A DNA stretch of 55,100 nt, from the IMG/VR virus record IMGVR_UViG_3300037189_011323, positions 62,001 to 117,100 of that record, one strand, 5' to 3'. This document shows positions 4,094 to 54,195 of this stretch, piece by piece (the stretch's first letter is position 1; every line of letters begins with the position of its first letter). The notes below the pieces were generated by a model. The model worked only from the letters and a program-made list of their open reading frames with translations, was not told the origin of the DNA and did no database searches. This DNA is from an uncultured virus (IMG/VR IMGVR_UViG_3300037189_011323). Its lineage: Duplodnaviria > Heunggongvirae > Uroviricota > Caudoviricetes. Position numbers and translations under genes: made by a program.

Positions 4094-4395
4094 AGGTCCA
4101 GTAATTCGTTAGTTTTGGATTCTACTTCTTCTGCAATTGCAGATATATTAAGATGAAAGTCCACACACTCTATTTCTTCATCATGTGCATCAAGATAGCT
4201 TTCAATTACAGTTTCAATTTCTGAATATTCATATCCATTTGCCAACATTGTTGTTACATCAAATGCATGAAGCTGACCATCTTGAAATTTTGCATCTATT
4301 CTTTTAATAAAACGAATGGGAACATCTGATATTTCAACACTTGAAATCAAATGCTCCCATCTGTCAAAAAATTCGTCACTGAAACTATCAGACAC
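4090..4395 (-). CDS. hypothetical acidic protein
   Basis: ORF coupled by overlaps to both neighbours. Confidence 0.7.
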   Translation of the reverse strand: MSDSFSDEFFDRWEHLISSVEISDVPIRFIKRIDAKFQDGQLHAFDVTTMLANGYEYSEIETVIESYLDAHDEEIECVDFHLNISAIAEEVESKTNELLDL

Positions 4396-5080
4396 TGGTC
4401 TTATTCTTAACGGTCTTTGCTGGTGCTTTCTTTGTAGACTTTACAACTACAGGTTTATCACCTTTAAGTTCATTAAGTTGCTTCTGCATGCTTTGCATGG
4501 TCTTCATCATTTCCATTATAAAAGCAGTCATATCTGGTTGTGCTGTTGGTGCTGGTTGAACTACAGGTGCTGGTGCAAGTTTTGCATTTTCTGCCGCAAG
4601 GTCTATGCCAAGGTCTTTAAAACTTGCATTTTCACTTACAAATGCATCTGTCTGTGCAGTCTTTGCTGGATCAGAATAACCTTGTGAATTTTCCATACGC
4701 TCAAGTTTCTTAACAGCATCATCACCTTTACCAACTGTAGATAATAGGTTGTTTAATTCATCAAGACGCATACTGCTCTTGCTGTTTGGTGTTACCATAA
4801 CACTGTTTGCAGCAACACGCTTAAGATAATTTTCTTGACTTAATGCTTGCAACATATTTTGTCCATCGCTCATCATACGGCGTTCAAGAATATCACTGAA
4901 CTCATATGCAGCTTGACCTTCTGTGCTTTCCAAAATCTTCATGACATCATCATGATATTTCTGTGGCATGATATCACTATAAATGACAACTGCCATATGT
5001 GGTTCATCACCACCAATGCTACGCTTGACGATGATAACTTTTTTACTATTGACTTTACCTACGTGTTTAAAAAAACTCAT
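4388..5080 (-). CDS. hypothetical protein
   Basis: 230-aa ORF coupled to neighbours; basic low-complexity C-terminal tail. Confidence 0.75.
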   Translation of the reverse strand: MSFFKHVGKVNSKKVIIVKRSIGGDEPHMAVVIYSDIMPQKYHDDVMKILESTEGQAAYEFSDILERRMMSDGQNMLQALSQENYLKRVAANSVMVTPNSKSSMRLDELNNLLSTVGKGDDAVKKLERMENSQGYSDPAKTAQTDAFVSENASFKDLGIDLAAENAKLAPAPVVQPAPTAQPDMTAFIMEMMKTMQSMQKQLNELKGDKPVVVKSTKKAPAKTVKNKTSV

Positions 5081-5286
5081 TGATCCGTTCCTTCGGTTGG
5101 TTGTGCAGCTGGAGTTGCGTTTGCAATAAATGCTTTTACTTTATCATAAACTGCACCAACGGTTGATAACTCTTCTGCTTTAAATGCACCACGTTGTGCA
5201 ACAATCTCTATAATTTGCACCAAAAATGCAATATCATTGATAGTTACACTTGGTGGTGTTTGAACTTCGTTATTTTCGTCGCTCAT
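5077..5286 (-). CDS. hypothetical protein (start likely ATG 5286, MSDENN)
   Basis: GGAG SD at 5293-5296; ATGA overlap with next gene. Confidence 0.7.
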   Translation of the reverse strand: MSDENNEVQTPPSVTINDIAFLVQIIEIVAQRGAFKAEELSTVGAVYDKVKAFIANATPAAQPTEGTDQ

Positions 5287-5318
5287 TTTAGTCTCCATTA
5301 TATTATATTTAATATAAT

Positions 5319-5348
5319 AAAAAAGGCTCCGAAAATTTTCGGAGCCTT
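5319..5348 (-). terminator. intrinsic terminator downstream of the VWA gene
   Basis: Perfect palindrome aaggctccgaaaattttcggagcctt with a minus-strand U tract (A run 5319-5324). Confidence 0.8.
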
Positions 5349-5350
5349 AA

Positions 5351-5385
5351 AAGATGCCTTATGGATGGATAGGATTAGGCATCTT
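5351..5385 (-). promoter_or_regulatory. stop-codon hairpin with loop antisense to the gene's own RBS
   Basis: Stem aagatgcct 5351-5359 / aggcatctt 5377-5385; loop atggatagga 5365-5374 is the reverse complement of tcctatccat 6646-6655. Confidence 0.6.
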
Positions 5386-6637
5386 CGTAGTAAGCACTTA
5401 CACCAAATGGTGGTTCAATGGTCTTGTTATACTTGTTATGGATAATCCAAACAGTATCACAATAGTTTTCATCACCCCAAGAACCAAATGGTTCACCGTC
5501 AGTAAACACAATCAATAGCTTTGGTGAAACATCTTCGTGCTTCATCCAGTTCCAATTCACTTCAAAGTCGGTGCCACCAAAACCTTTAGGTTCATAGTTT
5601 ACAAGGTCATCACCATCAGCAGTGGTATATTCTTGTGGGTTATGGACCTGTGTATCAAAGCACCACACTTTAATCTTGTAATCATCATATGATTGCATAA
5701 TACCGTTGATTTCACCAAAGAAATTATTCAACTGTTCATTGCTGATAGAACCACTGGTATCAATGGCAACACAGACATCAATAGCTTGGTCCTTACGCAT
5801 GTTAGGCAGAACAAAACCATTGCTGAAATGTTTCTTATTAGGAACAGTCCAAGTGTAATCATTCTTAACAGTGGATTGGATTTGTTGTGTAATGAGTTCA
5901 CGCCAGTTGATTTTAGGTTGTGTGAGTTCATTAATCATACGCTTGACATTGCCAGGAACATTGCCAGCGCCAGCAGATTGTGCGGCGGCAAGCATTGCTT
6001 CCTTAAACTCATCCTTAATCTTTTGACGTTCTTCTTGTGAAAGTACGGGACGACCTTTGCCATCCTTCTCACCATCACCTTCGCCGCCACCGCCCTTGCC
6101 ATCCTTGTCAGCATCAAGATGGTCATCAAGCAATTGGTCAAGCAAATCTTCAATGTTGATTTTGGTAGCGTTCTTGATCAAGTCATCATAAACTTGTTCA
6201 AAATTCCATTCATCGTATTTGCGATCATGCAATACGGGAACAACAGTAATTTTTGCACCAAGGTTATACTTAATACAATCAGCATTAACAACATAATCCA
6301 TTGCGATGTTGGCAATGTCACGTTGTTTGCCAATACCACGGTTGATATGGTCATATGCACAATGAAGCAATTCGTGACAAAACAAAAACATCATTTGGTT
6401 TGTAGGCAACTTGAGGATAAAGTCACTGTTGTAATAAAAGTGACGACCGTCAGTTGCGGCAGTGGTCAGCCAGCTATCGGCATTAACCAATTTTAGTCGC
6501 ATGGCAAGATTGCCGAAAAAAGGTTGTTTAAGAACCAGTGCAATACGAGCCTTGAGAATTGCTTGACGTGCGTTGTAATCTACCGTAGCATCAATAGTAT
6601 CGGACAGTTTGCCACCACCCTGTTTAACTTTAGCCAT
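5375..6637 (-). CDS. VWA-domain / HExxH metallopeptidase protein (DUF2201-like), partner of the AAA ATPase
   Basis: TAATDG, HELLH (HExxH), DTSGS MIDAS, GGTDF, VFTDG; start MAKVKQ at 6637 with AGGAG SD. Confidence 0.85.
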   Translation of the reverse strand: MAKVKQGGGKLSDTIDATVDYNARQAILKARIALVLKQPFFGNLAMRLKLVNADSWLTTAATDGRHFYYNSDFILKLPTNQMMFLFCHELLHCAYDHINRGIGKQRDIANIAMDYVVNADCIKYNLGAKITVVPVLHDRKYDEWNFEQVYDDLIKNATKINIEDLLDQLLDDHLDADKDGKGGGGEGDGEKDGKGRPVLSQEERQKIKDEFKEAMLAAAQSAGAGNVPGNVKRMINELTQPKINWRELITQQIQSTVKNDYTWTVPNKKHFSNGFVLPNMRKDQAIDVCVAIDTSGSISNEQLNNFFGEINGIMQSYDDYKIKVWCFDTQVHNPQEYTTADGDDLVNYEPKGFGGTDFEVNWNWMKHEDVSPKLLIVFTDGEPFGSWGDENYCDTVWIIHNKYNKTIEPPFGVSAYYEDA

Positions 6638-6661
6638 AATTAATCTCCTATCCATATATAC

Positions 6662-6689
6662 ATAATACCACAGAATTATATTATGTCAA
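6662..6689 (-). promoter_or_regulatory. sigma70-type early promoter
   Basis: TTGACA (6684-6689), 16 bp, TATTAT (6662-6667) with TGn extension. Confidence 0.7.
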
Positions 6690-6692
6690 GAG

Positions 6693-6730
6693 AAAAAATA
6701 GGGGGGAAGTGTTGCGGCACTACCCCCCTA
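6693..6730 (-). terminator. intrinsic terminator downstream of the AAA ATPase gene
   Basis: tagggggg/ccccccta stem with inner agtg/cact pairing and minus-strand U6 tract. Confidence 0.75.
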
Positions 6731-6763
6731 ACCGTAGGAAAAATCACACTTTTTTCCTACCTT

Positions 6764-6803
6764 ATCTCGCCCTCACTGTGATGGAGAACGATAGGGGCGA
6801 GAT
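6764..6803 (-). promoter_or_regulatory. stop-codon hairpin with loop antisense to the GAUGGAGAA RBS
   Basis: Stem atctcgccc 6764-6772 / gggcgagat 6795-6803; loop tgatggagaac 6779-6789 is the reverse complement of leaders at 7936, 8229 and 9043. Confidence 0.6.
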
Positions 6804-7930
6804 TAATCACGCACTGCCGCAAGGATGAAGTCACCGTTTTTAGCATGATATTCCTTATAGTGCTTCATCTTGCTAGTCTTCATTGGCAACTTGTAGTTAC
6901 GGAGAATAGTAGCAAGCATCATAACTTGTAATTCCGTATCCATGTTGTCAAGGAAGAAGCGGAACACGTTGTCAAGTTCATCGTGCCAAGCGGTATTCTC
7001 GTTGTCTTTCATACGTTCACCACCACGACGATCATAGCTATCCTTGAGTTCATAGCAACATGAAACCGTCAGCGAATACTTTGCACCAATGTCTTTCGCT
7101 TTGAGTTCCTTAACCTTACCGTTAAGAATATCGGTAGGATTAGGCATCTGGCTTGCTACCTTACGATGTGCGGCAAACTTAAGTGCAACACCTTCACCAA
7201 CTGTACCAGACACAAGGTCATTCAGTTCAGTATCTACAAGGTCTTCTTGCAAGAGATCGCTAACAAACGACCACGAACGAGGCGTAGCAAACGATGCACC
7301 ACTTTGGCGAGGATCAAAGTTGAACAAATCATTCTTGTTGCAAGTTACATAAGCAACAACGTCAGGATTGATAGCATTGTTCAATGCCCAATCATTCCAC
7401 GACTCGAAGTCAACACGCAAGTTCAAGTGAACAAAACGGTTGGCAAGTGGCGATGGCATACGATACACAACACCACGGTCAGTGTCACGGTTACCAGCGG
7501 CAACGATAACAACATTGTCAGGAAGTTCATACGTGCCAACACGACGATTAAGAACAAGCTGATAAGCGGCAGCTTGTGTTGCTGGTGCAGCAGAGTTCAT
7601 TTCGTCAAGGAAAAGAACCACAACAGGATACTTGGCAGCTTCTTCTGCTGTAGGCAGATCGGGTGGAGCATTCCACATGGCATTGCCAACGGTTGGGTTG
7701 TAGTAAAGAACACCTTTAAGATCGGAAGGGTCCATAAGTGCAAGACGCAAGTCATACAGCTTGCCGCCCATGCTTTCACAGATATCGGCAACAAGTTCGG
7801 ACTTGCCAATACCAGGTGCGCCCCACAAGAAGATAGGACGTTTACGCTTCATACATACCATAATTTCACGCTTTGCAGAAGCGAGAGTAACGGTGCGCAC
7901 TTCGGAAAGTGCCTCATTTGGTTTAGCCAT
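6803..7930 (-). CDS. MoxR/dynein-related AAA+ ATPase
   Basis: Walker A GAPGIGKS, Walker B LFLDE, AAGN sensor, PLANRF arginine finger, TPRSW. Confidence 0.9.
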   Translation of the reverse strand: MAKPNEALSEVRTVTLASAKREIMVCMKRKRPIFLWGAPGIGKSELVADICESMGGKLYDLRLALMDPSDLKGVLYYNPTVGNAMWNAPPDLPTAEEAAKYPVVVLFLDEMNSAAPATQAAAYQLVLNRRVGTYELPDNVVIVAAGNRDTDRGVVYRMPSPLANRFVHLNLRVDFESWNDWALNNAINPDVVAYVTCNKNDLFNFDPRQSGASFATPRSWSFVSDLLQEDLVDTELNDLVSGTVGEGVALKFAAHRKVASQMPNPTDILNGKVKELKAKDIGAKYSLTVSCCYELKDSYDRRGGERMKDNENTAWHDELDNVFRFFLDNMDTELQVMMLATILRNYKLPMKTSKMKHYKEYHAKNGDFILAAVRD

Positions 7931-7935
7931 TGTAA

Positions 7936-7958
7936 TTCTCCATCAGTTGACTATAACT
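7936..7958 (-). repeat. conserved early-gene leader, copy 1
   Basis: ttctccatcagttgactataact; near-identical at 8229-8251, related at 9044-9066. Confidence 0.85.
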
Positions 7959-7959
7959 C

Positions 7960-7987
7960 AATATAACACATTATTTGTAGTTGTCAA
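7960..7987 (-). promoter_or_regulatory. sigma70-type early promoter
   Basis: TTGACA (7982-7987), 16 bp, TATATT (7960-7965). Confidence 0.7.
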
Positions 7988-8228: not shown

Positions 8229-8251
8229 TTCTCCATCAATTGACTATAACT
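8229..8251 (-). repeat. conserved early-gene leader, copy 2
   Basis: ttctccatcaattgactataact, 22/23 identical to copy 1. Confidence 0.85.
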
Positions 8252-8252
8252 T

Positions 8253-8280
8253 ATATTACCACAGGATTAGGGGTTGTCAA
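8253..8280 (-). promoter_or_regulatory. sigma70-type early promoter
   Basis: TTGACA (8275-8280), 16 bp, TAATAT (8253-8258). Confidence 0.65.
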
Positions 8281-8924
8281 GCACTTTTTTCAAGACGAAC
8301 ATAATGTAAACGGGTTACATTTTTGTCATCATGTTTATAGATACGTGCGGTCAAGCTGATTTTCTCGTTATTTTCCAAGCGGTTAGCATGTGGAAAACTT
8401 ACAAGATTTCCGTCAATTTCAGCCGTATGATACCATTTACCATAATTATGGCTATAAACGGCACTTACAATTGTTACGGTTGCCTTTAACCCATCACCAA
8501 TTTGTCCAATATGACGGCTGTTTTCGCCAATTTGTGCAATCTTTTCAACGGCTTGCTCACGCTTTACAGCGTTATTATAGGAACTAGGAACGCTGGCAAT
8601 AACCGCCAAGTTACGGTAATCGTCAGTTTTAAATTCTTTTTGTTCTGTTAAAAGAACGCAAGTTTTCCAGTATTCTTGTAATGTGCCAGCAATAAGTTCA
8701 ATCATCTTGCTGTCAAGATATTCACAAATTTGTTCAGCAAATTCAATATCTTGCGGTAAAATTTTAAAGTTTTCCATTTCTGGATTAAGAAATTCACGCA
8801 TAAGTGCGGCATTGCTTAATTCACCCTTGGTGTTGTCAGCATCATGCCGTTTGATATAACGACCATTTGTCCGTTGTGCCGCACAAGCGGCAGACATAGC
8901 ATGTTTCAAGCCAATAGTGGTCAT
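8277..8924 (-). CDS. hypothetical protein with possible C-terminal OB-fold
   Basis: C-terminal SRHIGQIGD...ISLTARIYKH...VTRLHYVR beta pattern. Confidence 0.65.
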   Translation of the reverse strand: MTTIGLKHAMSAACAAQRTNGRYIKRHDADNTKGELSNAALMREFLNPEMENFKILPQDIEFAEQICEYLDSKMIELIAGTLQEYWKTCVLLTEQKEFKTDDYRNLAVIASVPSSYNNAVKREQAVEKIAQIGENSRHIGQIGDGLKATVTIVSAVYSHNYGKWYHTAEIDGNLVSFPHANRLENNEKISLTARIYKHDDKNVTRLHYVRLEKSA

Positions 8925-9037
8925 TTTGCACCTTTATGCTTTGGTTTACGGGTATAGCTGCCCTTGCCCTTACGGGGGGTGACAATTTTTTGACGGTATT
9001 TGGGGTCAGCCAATGACTTGGCAATAAGGCTACGCAT
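8921..9037 (-). CDS. arfA: ArfA-like alternative ribosome-rescue factor (38 aa, not in ORF track)
   Basis: Manual translation MRSLIAKSLADPKYRQKIVTPRKGKGSYTRKPKHKGAK matches the ArfA core DPxxRQ...KGKGSYxRKxKH; GGAGA SD, own promoter, ATGA overlap with downstream gene. Confidence 0.75.
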   Translation of the reverse strand: MRSLIAKSLADPKYRQKIVTPRKGKGSYTRKPKHKGAK

Positions 9038-9043
9038 CGCTAG

Positions 9044-9089
9044 TTCTCCATCAATTATGCTATAATATCATATAATTATGCCTTGTCAA
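9044..9089 (-). promoter_or_regulatory. early promoter plus leader copy 3
   Basis: TTGACA (9084-9089), 16 bp, TATTAT (9062-9067); leader ttctccatcaatt. Confidence 0.7.
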
Positions 9090-11681: not shown

Positions 11682-11710
11682 AATATAATGTATGGACTTT
11701 AATTTGTCAA
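11682..11710 (-). promoter_or_regulatory. sigma70-type promoter
   Basis: TTGACA (11705-11710), 17 bp, TATATT. Confidence 0.6.
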
Positions 11711-11713
11711 GGG

Positions 11714-12145
11714 TTATTTTATTTCAGTGCGACCATCACCAAGATTAGTTCTGGTAACATACCGAGTGTTATCTAAATTGGGGGGATTTTGTTCGTTGGT
11801 GCGTATGATATTACGTGCCACATCATTAAGCCAAGCATCAACAAGGTCTTCGGGATTGATACCACGATAACCATTTTCACGCAGCATTTCAATAAACTCT
11901 GCGTTCCAATCAAGTTCCATACTACCCATACTTGGATTTTTTGGATCAAAGTCAAATCCAAGCACGGATACACGTGGTTCTACTTTTACAGGTTTTTCTT
12001 TTTTTACACGAGGTTTTTTAGGTTTTGGTTCTGGTTTAGTTTTAGTAACGGCTGGTGGTGCGCTTTCTGTTTGCACAGTAGAGGCGTCAGCGGTTTTGTT
12101 ATTTGTATTAGTTAATGTTTCTATAATTTTATTAAAGATTTTCAT
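11714..12145 (-). CDS. conserved phage hypothetical protein
   Basis: Lys/Pro-rich N-terminus, ELDWN motif; ATGA overlap. Confidence 0.7.
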   Translation of the reverse strand: MKIFNKIIETLTNTNNKTADASTVQTESAPPAVTKTKPEPKPKKPRVKKEKPVKVEPRVSVLGFDFDPKNPSMGSMELDWNAEFIEMLRENGYRGINPEDLVDAWLNDVARNIIRTNEQNPPNLDNTRYVTRTNLGDGRTEIK

Positions 12146-12453: not shown

Positions 12454-12504
12454 GGTTTTCTCCATATAACCCTTTATACTACGGTATTTAATATCTGTCA
12501 AGTA

Positions 12505-53256: not shown

Positions 53257-53295
53257 ACTCCTGATATAATATAGTTATTATTAAATCAGGAGTCA
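53257..53295 (-). promoter_or_regulatory. early promoter inside an SD-sequestering inverted repeat
   Basis: actcctgat 53257-53265 / atcaggagt 53285-53293; TTGACT overlaps the upstream arm, AGGAG SD lies in the downstream arm. Confidence 0.55.
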
Positions 53296-53298
53296 ATA

Positions 53299-54195
53299 TT
53301 AATTAGTGGCAGTTCTAAACCATCTATTTGCACTGTTTACGAAAGTAAATCCAATGTTACTATTACCACTTAAAGTAGTGGTATTGCCATTAATTGTATT
53401 TCCAGCAACAAGGAACATATTTGCAATAGAGACATTCGCACTTATGCTTAGTGACTGACCATCCATTGGATAACTTGGGAAAGTTACCTTAACATTTGCA
53501 AGAGCACCAGCGGCACCGTTATCAAGAATTAACTTGCTGATAACGCTTACGTTTGTGGTATTCGTGGAACTTGTTCCATTACTGACGTTAGAATAAAGAT
53601 AATCTGGATTTACACGAGCACGGCTTAGTGGGAAAATTGTGATTGTAACACCCGCATCATCACTAATAAACTCATACCAATAAATTCCTACACCACTTTG
53701 TGTGTAACCAATGCTATTATTAGTTTGATCATAATCTTGAAGATATTTTGTTCCAATACTTACCGCACTTGGTAAAATTAAACGGTGACTTGTGCTTGTA
53801 ACATTTAGCTTAAGACGAATACGACCAACTGTTCCTGCAGCAGGAAAGTTACTAAAAGCAAGTGTTACTGTTCCGTTAGTTTGAACTTTATGATAATGTC
53901 CACGGCTATGATCTAATGTGACGTTAGTAGAGATAATACCATTGTCATATTCTGTTTCACGAAAATCTTGAATTTGCGCACTGCTTAATAGTGTGCCGCC
54001 CATGTTGTTATTCAACGTTGTTCCACTTAAGGCACTTTTTACGATTGCTTTACTTTGTAAATCATCAAGTTCACTTTGCGCATAAGCAAAGTTATTCTTT
54101 ATGTTTGTAAAGTTATCACGAAAACCTTGACTATCGTTATCAACACCAGCTACAGGATAAGCAGAATTGATATTATTAGGGTTAATGTTACTCAT
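53299..54195 (-). CDS. probable virion structural (baseplate/tail) protein
   Basis: YPVAGVDNDSQGFRDNF N-terminus, Ser/Thr/Asn-rich beta regions; TAAATA at 54215-54220. Confidence 0.65.
   Translation of the reverse strand: MSNINPNNINSAYPVAGVDNDSQGFRDNFTNIKNNFAYAQSELDDLQSKAIVKSALSGTTLNNNMGGTLLSSAQIQDFRETEYDNGIISTNVTLDHSRGHYHKVQTNGTVTLAFSNFPAAGTVGRIRLKLNVTSTSHRLILPSAVSIGTKYLQDYDQTNNSIGYTQSGVGIYWYEFISDDAGVTITIFPLSRARVNPDYLYSNVSNGTSSTNTTNVSVISKLILDNGAAGALANVKVTFPSYPMDGQSLSISANVSIANMFLVAGNTINGNTTTLSGNSNIGFTFVNSANRWFRTATN

What the first reader, a model, noticed from the sequence alone, without database searches (positions are those of the whole stretch)
5351..7958. Stop-codon hairpins whose loops are antisense to the same gene's ribosome-binding site
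Seen twice, with different sequences. VWA gene: a 9-bp stem (5351-5359/5377-5385) displays UCCUAUCCAU, perfectly complementary to its leader AUGGAUAGGA (6646-6655), extendable by a few more pairs across a 2-nt bulge. AAA gene: a 9-bp stem (6764-6772/6795-6803) displays UUCUCCAUCA, perfectly complementary to its leader UGAUGGAGAA (7936-7945). A terminator follows each. The match is gene-specific, which argues against chance. Inference: 5'-3' mRNA pairing that shuts off or times translation once the transcript is complete, closed-loop translation, or 3'-UTR-derived sRNAs controlling the AAA:VWA ratio. I know no description of this in phages.
Basis: partly seen in the sequence, partly recalled or inferred. 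Interest (0 to 1): 0.85.

Follow-up and report, generated by a model that had tools for sequence, protein, structure and literature searches.

The report
Stop-codon hairpins antisense to own ribosome site
Two early phage genes each end in an RNA hairpin whose loop can base-pair with the ribosome-binding site at the start of the same messenger RNA, probably a built-in brake on translation similar to a few known bacterial cases.

Summary
Both genes lie on the minus strand as separate promoter-leader-gene-hairpin-terminator units. The hairpin at each stop codon displays a perfect 10-nt complement of the gene's own leader, covering the Shine-Dalgarno sequence.

- **Chance:** each 10-mer is expected about 0.1 times in the window. 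Only 3 of 188 large-loop hairpins in the 117-kb genome sit at stop codons, and these two are among them. A loop-leader run of 10 or more occurs in 9.4e-4 of control pairs.
- **AAA gene:** across 25 related loci, synonymous sites are 63% identical, yet the leader 10-mer and the loop core never vary. Pairing spans 8-13 nt. One lineage with a different stem carries two compensatory pair changes.
- **VWA gene:** this case is weaker. The 10-nt match occurs only in the closest relatives; elsewhere the hairpin is absent or mismatched.
- **Specificity:** the AAA match is not gene-specific. Three nested promoters carry the same leader.

The most likely reading is a fold-back anti-ribosome-site element that limits translation of completed mRNAs, as in icaR or hok. 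This is a new variant of a known kind, and its function is untested.

The parts
7960..7987 (-). Promoter of the AAA unit (TTGACA-16-TATATT, TG extended); predicted +1 about 7953
   Evidence: 11 of 12 consensus matches; +1 inferred from spacing
7936..7947 (-). AAA leader segment ACUGAUGGAGAA containing the SD (GGAG). The 10-nt perfect complement of the loop is 7936-7945; 7946-7947 pair across a 2-nt bulge
6803..7930 (-). AAA+ (MoxR-like) ATPase gene, 375 aa
   Evidence: PF00004, PF07726, PF07728; phrog_1297
6764..6803 (-). AAA stop-codon hairpin H1: 9-bp stem starting at the last base of TAA, 22-nt loop. No U tract follows, so it is not the terminator
   Evidence: 3' region z = -4.9
6779..6788 (-). 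Anti-leader UUCUCCAUCA in the H1 loop
6734..6760 (-). Second hairpin (10-bp stem), variable or absent in relatives
6690..6730 (-). Intrinsic terminator of the AAA unit (G/C stem plus U run)
6662..6689 (-). Promoter of the VWA unit (TTGACA-16-TATTAT, TG extended); predicted +1 at 6655
   Evidence: +1 inferred
6646..6655 (-). VWA leader AUGGAUAGGA, from the predicted 5' end into the SD (AGGAG)
5375..6637 (-). DUF2201 metallopeptidase-like / VWA-like gene, 420 aa
   Evidence: (PF13203, PF09967)
5351..5385 (-). VWA stop-codon hairpin H1: the 9-bp stem includes the last codons and the first base of TAA; 17-nt loop
   Evidence: z = -6.2
5365..5374 (-). Anti-leader UCCUAUCCAU in the loop
5323..5348 (-). 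Intrinsic terminator of the VWA unit
8229..8280 (-). Upstream nested promoter (8280-8253) and leader with the same 10-mer (8238-8229), ahead of a 79-aa ORF. No terminator before the AAA 3' end
9044..9089 (-). Second nested promoter (9089-9062) and leader with the same 10-mer (9053-9044), ahead of the ArfA-like ORF

Best explanation
Each hairpin is a cis-acting anti-ribosome-binding-site element in the 3' untranslated tail of a short early phage mRNA.

Proposed sequence of events:
1. Transcription starts at a near-consensus sigma-70 promoter, giving a 20-25-nt unstructured leader.
2. Ribosomes load while the mRNA is being made.
3. Once the 3' end is transcribed, the pyrimidine-rich loop next to the stop codon can pair with the leader over 8-13 nt, including the Shine-Dalgarno sequence. 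For VWA the pairing starts at the very 5' end.
4. This masks the ribosome site, so completed transcripts are translated less and probably decay faster. Output from very strong promoters is thereby capped or timed.

For AAA, the same loop would act on all three nested transcripts that share the leader.

Shown: the anatomy, its statistical rarity, its conservation, and one compensatory lineage. Inferred: that the pairing forms in the cell, and that its effect is negative.
For: 1. Exact 10-nt complements sit in the loops of the only GC-containing large-loop hairpins at stop codons, together with one unrelated AT-rich case. The control rate is 9.4e-4 per loop-leader pair.
2. Both complements cover the SD.
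3. The leaders are no more structured than shuffles (z +0.56 and +0.27), while the 3' regions are strongly structured (z -4.9 and -6.2).
4. AAA conservation in 25 loci: third codon positions average 63% pairwise identity and only 41 of 375 are invariant. By contrast, 10 of 10 leader columns and 7 of 7 loop-core positions are invariant in 25 of 25. The loop flanks, stem and downstream terminators do vary.
5. Contiguous Watson-Crick pairing in those 25 loci: 8 nt in 1, 10 nt in 8, 12 nt in 15, and 13 nt in 1.
6. L023/L160 have an unrelated stem (UGCCCCCC). At two positions both partners changed (C-G to A-U, A-U to G-C), and 2-3 further pairs are gained, compensating two pairs lost at the other end.
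7. 28 distinct leader/trailer combinations from distant homologues (51-59% aa identity) give runs of only 4-8 with no pattern.
8. Experimental precedent: aSD-like sequences hundreds of nt downstream pair with the RBS, block initiation and promote decay in B. subtilis (PMC12697547, abstract and discussion). A 3'-UTR UCCCC motif masks the icaR SD (PMC3868564, abstract and passages).
Against: - No expression or structure data: no RNA run was available, and the transcript ends are predictions.
- Broad within-genome tests are not significant.
- VWA is patchy. Among 18 close-clade combinations the run is 10 in 3, 8 in 1, 7 in 2 and <=6 in 12. 8 lack the hairpin.
- L088/L029 keep UCCUAUCC in a new stem, but GGAUAGGA is absent from the whole 7-kb locus.
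- In L021/L161 and L035, single changes weaken AAA pairing without compensation.
- The compensatory evidence rests on one lineage, so effectively one event.
- Geometry (inference from pseudoknot rules, not computed): in the commonest AAA loop only 2 nt separate the 12-nt anti-leader from the 3' arm. The full duplex and an intact stem are therefore probably mutually exclusive.
- Ribosomes loaded co-transcriptionally could keep the site occupied.
- Loop conservation could reflect a protein-binding site.
Confidence: 0.5

Rival explanations
1. Trans-acting 3'-derived small RNA. The hairpin plus terminator survives as a stable 3' fragment after the mRNA body decays and accumulates during early infection. 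Its loop then titrates the ribosome sites of newly made early mRNAs carrying the GAUGGAG (or GGAUAGGA) leader. This would be delayed negative feedback on the whole early leader class, not a fold-back within one molecule.
For: - The AAA loop complement matches three leaders in the window and 8 nt of a fourth (12503 unit; read).
- GAUGGAG leaders behind promoters recur 1-3 times upstream of AAA in 17 of 19 related loci examined.
- The 3' modules fold as two or three stable hairpins ending in a terminator, the usual shape of 3'-derived sRNAs.
- Autoregulatory 3'-UTR sRNAs are known (OppZ/CarZ; PMC7398697, search listing and start of abstract only).
- There is a sub-threshold resemblance of 5319-5416 to RcsR1 sRNA (28 bits, gathering 60).
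Against: - No evidence of a processed fragment.
- The Rfam match is below threshold.
- The VWA loop has a single target in the window.
- Nothing here separates trans from cis action.
Confidence: 0.15
2. Positive 5'-3' closure. Pairing of the leader (for VWA the extreme 5' end) with the 3' hairpin protects the mRNA from 5'-end-dependent decay, or places terminating ribosomes next to the start site. Termination melts the stem and hands ribosomes back to the freed ribosome site.
For: - The VWA complement starts at the predicted +1.
- In five unrelated stem designs the stem abuts or overlaps the stop codon, as if termination and the hairpin were coupled.
- A 5'/3'-UTR interaction that stabilises hbs mRNA is known (PMC5737220, search listing and start of abstract only).
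Against: - The paired segment includes the SD itself, and the duplex is calculated to be 2-3 times more stable than SD:anti-SD pairing. That predicts masking, not help.
- Downstream aSD-like sequences were repressive in the one systematic experiment.
- Adjacency to the stop codon may only reflect compact 3' tails.
Confidence: 0.15
3. The loop is conserved for another reason, such as the binding site of a phage or host protein or a nuclease-processing signal. Its complementarity to the leader is then a by-product of both being SD-like/anti-SD-like sequences, or reflects a DNA-level inverted repeat.
For: - All loop variants are pyrimidine-rich with CCU/UCC motifs whatever their leader.
- L088 keeps UCCUAUCC without a matching leader.
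- The leader 10-mer lies in a 20-nt promoter-proximal block repeated at three promoters, which could be an operator.
Against: - It does not explain why the L023/L160 loop follows that lineage's own leader at five positions outside the SD core.
- It does not explain why two different genes carry two different, each perfectly matched, 10-mers.
- No open reading frame or promoter was seen on the opposite strand at either loop (read).
Confidence: 0.1
4. Coincidence: two chance 10-nt matches in an A+T-rich genome.
For: Broad leader x trailer tests are not significant. The third stop-codon hairpin's 9-nt match proved not to be conserved.
Against: - Architecture-restricted control rate of 9.4e-4 per pair, seen twice.
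- 10-mers expected 0.1 times per window.
- Invariance against a 63%-identical synonymous background, plus compensatory change.
Confidence: 0.04

Closest known systems
icaR mRNA 5'-3' UTR interaction, Staphylococcus aureus (PMC3868564; abstract and passages read)
   Same: An anti-SD motif in the 3' untranslated region of the same mRNA pairs with the SD region. In icaR this blocks the initiation complex and creates an RNase III substrate.
   Different: - icaR has a long (>100 nt) 3' UTR and a 7-nt UCCCCUG motif.
- Here the motif is 10-13 nt, displayed in the loop of a hairpin that touches the stop codon, in phage early genes, and occurs twice with different sequences.
- Effect and RNase III involvement are untested here.
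hok mRNA fold-back inhibition (fbi) of plasmid R1, and the RNAIII 3'-end fold-back (as described in passages of PMC3868564; primary papers not read)
   Same: [quoted passage not shown] For VWA the pairing starts at the predicted 5' end.
   Different: - No toxin or antisense partner is present.
- There is no sign that 3' trimming would remove the element; the stable stem would more likely protect it.
Long-range repression by aSD-like sequences in B. subtilis mRNAs (Gill et al. 2025 preprint, PMC12697547; abstract and discussion read)
   Same: Pyrimidine-rich anti-SD-like sequences hundreds of nt downstream pair with the RBS, inhibit initiation and promote decay.
   Different: That study reports such sequences as depleted from genes, i.e. 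selected against. Here they are conserved at a fixed place, which implies selection for them.
Autoregulatory 3'-UTR-derived sRNAs OppZ and CarZ, Vibrio cholerae (PMC7398697; search listing and start of abstract only)
   Same: The 3' end of an mRNA carries a sequence that base-pairs with its own operon's transcript to give negative feedback.
   Different: Those act in trans after processing. Processing and chaperone dependence are unknown here.
T7 gene 1.2 / RNase III (Saito and Richardson 1981; only the title seen in a reference list; mechanism recalled)
   Same: As I recall it, a phage early mRNA whose unprocessed 3' region pairs with an upstream ribosome site and lowers translation.
   Different: Recalled only. 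In T7 the element is an RNase III processing site in a polycistronic RNA, not a loop complement at a stop codon.

Membership tests
cis 5'-3' UTR anti-SD interaction (icaR type) | Sequence in the 3' untranslated part of the same transcript complementary to the SD region | tested here: met
   10-nt perfect complements covering GGAG / AGGA. Co-transcription is inferred from the promoter and terminator scans.
cis 5'-3' UTR anti-SD interaction (icaR type) | Complementarity maintained in evolution | tested here: met
   Met for AAA: 25 of 25 loci pair over 8-13 nt, with one compensatory lineage. For VWA the result is inconclusive to negative outside the closest relatives.
cis 5'-3' UTR anti-SD interaction (icaR type) | Pairing forms physically and lowers initiation and/or triggers RNase III cleavage | not testable with these tools
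   Only duplex energies were calculated. No RNA run was listed.
hok-type fold-back inhibition | 3' end pairs with the extreme 5' end of the full-length mRNA | tested here: inconclusive
   The VWA complement begins at the predicted +1, but the TSS is not mapped. The AAA complement starts about 7-9 nt in.
hok-type fold-back inhibition | Type I toxin gene with an antisense RNA partner | tested here: not met
   The genes are an AAA+ ATPase and a DUF2201/VWA protein.
3'-UTR-derived autoregulatory sRNA (OppZ/CarZ type) | Stable processed 3' fragment ending at the terminator | not testable with these tools
   The fold is compatible, but there are no RNA data.
Rfam RcsR1 sRNA (RF02552) | Score at or above the family gathering threshold | tested here: not met
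   28 bits against a threshold of 60 at 5319-5416.
Intrinsic terminator (for the stop-codon hairpins themselves) | G+C stem with a short loop followed directly by a U tract | tested here: not met
   Loops are 17 and 22 nt and no U run follows. Separate terminators lie 1-33 nt further on.

The most novel reading that the evidence does not exclude
A ribosome-gated, self-closing messenger. Because the stem abuts the stop codon, and the full loop-leader duplex seems incompatible with an intact stem, the stem would hold the anti-ribosome-site sequence in check. The first ribosomes to reach the stop codon would melt the stem and license the 10-13-nt duplex with the leader. Each mRNA would then close, and perhaps become a nuclease substrate, after a small number of translation rounds. 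The element would count translation events, not time. A phage-encoded ArfA ribosome-rescue factor sits in the same nested transcript, so cleavage in a stem that contains the stop codon could also feed non-stop mRNAs into a phage-controlled rescue route.
Probability: 0.12. Interest if true: 0.85.

Novelty: new variant of a known kind. Interest (0 to 1): 0.55.

Why it matters
Few natural long-range self-interactions of bacterial mRNAs are documented; the discussion of PMC12697547 cites three.

A phage that has fixed an anti-ribosome-site sequence in a hairpin loop at the stop codon would matter for three reasons:
- It would be a compact natural example, occurring in two genes with two different sequences and conserved against a diverged background.
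- It would show that such interactions are selected for, not only against.
- It would provide a small portable part (leader plus 40-nt tail) for capping or timing expression from strong promoters.

The fixed position at the stop codon makes the link between termination and mRNA closure directly testable.

Tried and rejected
The longest leader/trailer complement and RNAduplex energies do not single out the cognate pairs. There is no excess of downstream over upstream complements. I did not rely on these.
- **First hairpin scan.** It had a bug and found none of the hairpins. It was rewritten.
- **Third stop-codon hairpin (53257-53293).**
  - It has a 9-nt loop/leader match.
  - Relatives that keep the hairpin at 58-76% identity (L192, L194/L214, L207, L212, L213) have no match, and close relatives show uncompensated changes.
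  - The loop holds a promoter -10 box.
  - I rejected it as an instance.
- **Distant AAA and VWA homologues (50-66% identity).** They have plain terminators. The occasional UCUCC in their loops is not conserved.
- **Public phage records.** No close relative was found; the best DNA matches are 68-81% identical over 2-10% of the query.
- **Metagenome scan.** It added only a few new variants among its 22 loci.
- **RNA evidence.** No RNA holder was listed.
- **Earlier notes of this scan.** Nothing on record.
- **Rfam.** Nothing reached a gathering score.
- **Small ORF at 9037..8924.** Searches used a wrong frame (8927-9036), so those blanks are void.
- **Literature for a phage description of this arrangement.** Three searches listed none. 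Subscription-journal papers, including the T7 paper, are outside the library.
Full report
**Anatomy.** The window is A+T-rich (36% G+C) and most genes run on the minus strand. Between 9089 and 5320 there is a row of short units driven by near-consensus sigma-70 promoters, at 9089, 8280, 7987 and 6689 (10-11 of 12 consensus positions, three with an extended TG).

The AAA+ (MoxR-like) ATPase gene is 7930..6803. The DUF2201 metallopeptidase-like/VWA-like gene is 6637..5375 (Pfam; PHROGs). Each is followed by three elements:
- a hairpin that touches the stop codon;
- for AAA only, a second hairpin;
- a separate intrinsic terminator.

The VWA start is best placed at ATG 6637, behind AGGAG.

**The observation.**
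- AAA: stem 6803-6795/6772-6764, with loop UUCUCCAUCA (6788-6779) against leader UGAUGGAGAA (7945-7936). Two more pairs follow across a CA bulge.
- VWA: stem 5385-5377/5359-5351, with loop UCCUAUCCAU (5374-5365) against AUGGAUAGGA (6655-6646).

Both complements include the Shine-Dalgarno bases. The calculated loop-leader duplexes are -16.4 and -15.3 kcal/mol. The 5' regions are no more structured than shuffled sequence (z +0.56 and +0.27). The 3' regions are highly structured (z -4.9 and -6.2; 0 of 200 shuffles fold as well).

- With heuristic gene calls for the whole 117.1-kb contig (124 genes), a run of 10 or more between a 38-nt leader and a 68-nt trailer occurs in 2 of 124 cognate pairs and in 78 of 15,252 non-cognate pairs. 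A+T-only runs are common.
- RNAduplex energies are dominated by G+C-rich terminator stems. They rank the two cognate pairs only in the best 2.3% and 2.8%.
- Leader complements are no commoner downstream (43) than upstream (56).

The signal appears once the described architecture is required.
- Of 606 perfect-stem hairpins with 8-30-nt loops, 188 have at least three G-C pairs, and only 3 of those lie at a called stop codon.
- Among 23,309 control pairs of such loops with non-cognate leaders, a run of 10 or more occurs in 9.4e-4 and a run of 9 or more in 2.1e-3.
- In each of the three, the gene's own leader is the best of 124.
- Each 10-mer is expected about 0.1 times in the window on both strands. 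They occur 4 and 2 times, always as a leader or as the loop complement.

The third hairpin (53257-53293) has an A+T-rich 9-nt match, but I do not count it:
- its loop carries the -10 box of an internal promoter;
- its 3' arm is the ribosome site of the next gene;
- relatives that keep the hairpin lose the match without compensation.

**Comparative evidence, AAA.** 79 viral loci and 22 metagenome loci encode relatives. They split into a close clade (86-100% aa identity) and a distant group (51-59%).
- The 28 distinct distant leader/trailer combinations give runs of 4-8 with no pattern, and their tails are plain terminators.
- All 21 distinct close-clade combinations keep a stop-codon hairpin with the complement. 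The run is 10 in 6, 12 in 13, 13 in 1 and 8 in 1.

I then aligned 25 representative sequences.
- Third codon positions average 63% pairwise identity (minimum 41%), and only 41 of 375 are invariant.
- All 10 leader columns and all 7 positions of the loop core CUCCAUC are invariant in 25 of 25.
- The loop flanks (4 and 6 variants), the stem, the second hairpin and the terminator vary.

L023 and L160 carry an unrelated stem (UGCCCCCC/GGGGGGCA).
- Their leader differs upstream of UGAUGGAG, and their loop follows it.
- Two positions changed on both sides (C-G to A-U, A-U to G-C) and further pairs are gained, giving 13 and 12 contiguous pairs. Two pairs at the other end are lost.
- This is compensatory change, but in a single lineage.

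Uncompensated weakening also occurs. In L021/L161 one leader change gives 10+1 pairs. In L035 loop changes give 8+2 pairs.

**Comparative evidence, VWA.** This case is much weaker. Among 18 distinct close-clade combinations:
- The window's design (run 10, or 8 in L083) is limited to WIN/L080, L081, L083 and L084, which have diverged too little to be informative.
- Other lineages have different stop-codon stems with pyrimidine-rich loops, and the complement to their own leader varies: 7 nt in L089 (AUAGGAG), 7 of 8 in L087, 7 in L094, and 5 or fewer in L082, L088 and L092.
- Eight combinations have no such hairpin.
- L088/L029 keep UCCUAUCC in a new stem, but GGAUAGGA occurs nowhere in the 7-kb locus.

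The recurring feature is an anti-SD-like loop at the stop codon. Strict pairing with the gene's own leader is not maintained.

**Not gene-specific.** UGAUGGAGAA follows three promoters (leaders at 7945, 8238 and 9053). No terminator was found between 9089 and the AAA tail. Three nested transcripts would therefore share one 3' hairpin. Related phages likewise repeat GAUGGAG leaders behind promoters upstream of AAA, in 17 of 19 loci examined. This fits cis action on nested mRNAs or trans action on a leader class. It contradicts the argument from gene specificity.

**Mechanism.** The best-supported reading is an anti-ribosome-site element in the 3' tail that pairs with the leader of the completed mRNA and lowers its translation and probably its stability.

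Shown:
- placement and complementarity;
- rarity under architecture-matched controls;
- purifying selection on both partners for AAA;
- one compensatory lineage.

Inferred:
- the transcript ends;
- formation of the duplex in vivo;
- the negative sign of the effect.

The sign is inferred from three things:
- the SD lies inside the duplex;
- the duplex is calculated to be much more stable than SD:anti-SD pairing;
- there is experimental precedent. aSD-like 8-mers hundreds of nt downstream pair with the RBS, block initiation and promote decay (PMC12697547, abstract and discussion). The icaR 3' UTR masks its SD and creates an RNase III substrate (PMC3868564, abstract and passages). That paper also describes the hok and RNAIII fold-backs.

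One caveat comes from pseudoknot geometry (my inference, not computed). In the commonest AAA loop only 2 nt separate the 12-nt complement from the 3' arm. Full pairing would therefore probably require the stem to open. Stems of five unrelated sequences all abut the stop codon, so a terminating ribosome may gate the switch. That is the most novel reading, and I give it low probability.

**Rivals** are set out with their tests in the Rival explanations section:
- a trans-acting 3'-derived sRNA;
- a positive closure or stabilisation role;
- a protein-binding loop;
- chance.

**Comparison with the known, and novelty.** The element works like the icaR, hok and RNAIII fold-backs and like OppZ/CarZ autoregulation. 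It differs in four ways:
- the anti-leader is displayed in a large loop of a stop-codon hairpin;
- it is 10-13 nt long;
- it sits in monocistronic or nested early phage mRNAs;
- it occurs twice with different sequences.

No Rfam family reaches threshold. Three literature searches listed no phage description. The library lacks most subscription journals, and the T7 gene 1.2 case is only recalled. I rate it a new variant of a known kind, of moderate interest. The AAA case is solid at the sequence level, the VWA case is suggestive, and function is untested.

Noticed in passing
window 8924-9037 (-): A 38-aa ORF right after promoter 9089 is an ArfA family member (alternative ribosome-rescue factor A; PF03889, 37.4 bits against cutoff 25.5). 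Its stop overlaps the next gene's ATG. Related phages have the same ATGCG... start behind a GAUGGAG leader. A phage-encoded ribosome-rescue factor next to stop-codon hairpins may be connected, but this was not tested.
   Followed up: partly
window 53257-53293 (-): A 9-bp hairpin after gene 54195..53299 encloses a promoter-like TTGACT-17-TATATT. Its 3' arm AUCAGGAGU is the ribosome site of the next gene (ATG 53250). The promoter is conserved in relatives; the hairpin is kept in only some.
   Followed up: partly
window 11709-11717 and 12470-12478 (-): The start of the leader of the unit behind the promoter at about 12503 (AAGGGUUAU) is complementary to AUAACCCUU at the stop codon of that unit's last gene. 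This overlaps the -35 box of the next promoter (11710). It is within the chance background.
   Followed up: no
window 6734-6760 (-): A second, A/U-rich 10-bp hairpin lies between the AAA stop hairpin and the terminator. In relatives it is replaced by other sequences or absent.
   Followed up: no
L011-L013, L029 (about 4216-5302), L030/L034: In some relatives an extra gene is inserted between the AAA terminator and the VWA gene. In L011-L013 and L029 it is a protein of about 360-380 aa starting MFDFENIL. The VWA gene keeps its own promoter.
   Followed up: no
L014 / L162, 3' end of the contig: The contig ends with an inverted copy of the AAA stop hairpin region directly after the terminator. 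This looks like an assembly fold-back artefact at a contig end.
   Followed up: no
window 5378-6637 (-): PHROG 1314, which this protein matches at E 5e-106, is labelled 'HNH endonuclease'. Pfam gives DUF2201_N (putative metallopeptidase) plus a VWA-like domain, and several GenBank phage records carry the HNH label on homologues. The label looks like a propagated misannotation.
   Followed up: no
window 5319-5416 (-): The VWA tail (stop hairpin plus terminator) gives a sub-threshold match to the RcsR1 sRNA family (28 bits, gathering 60, E 0.0087).
   Followed up: no
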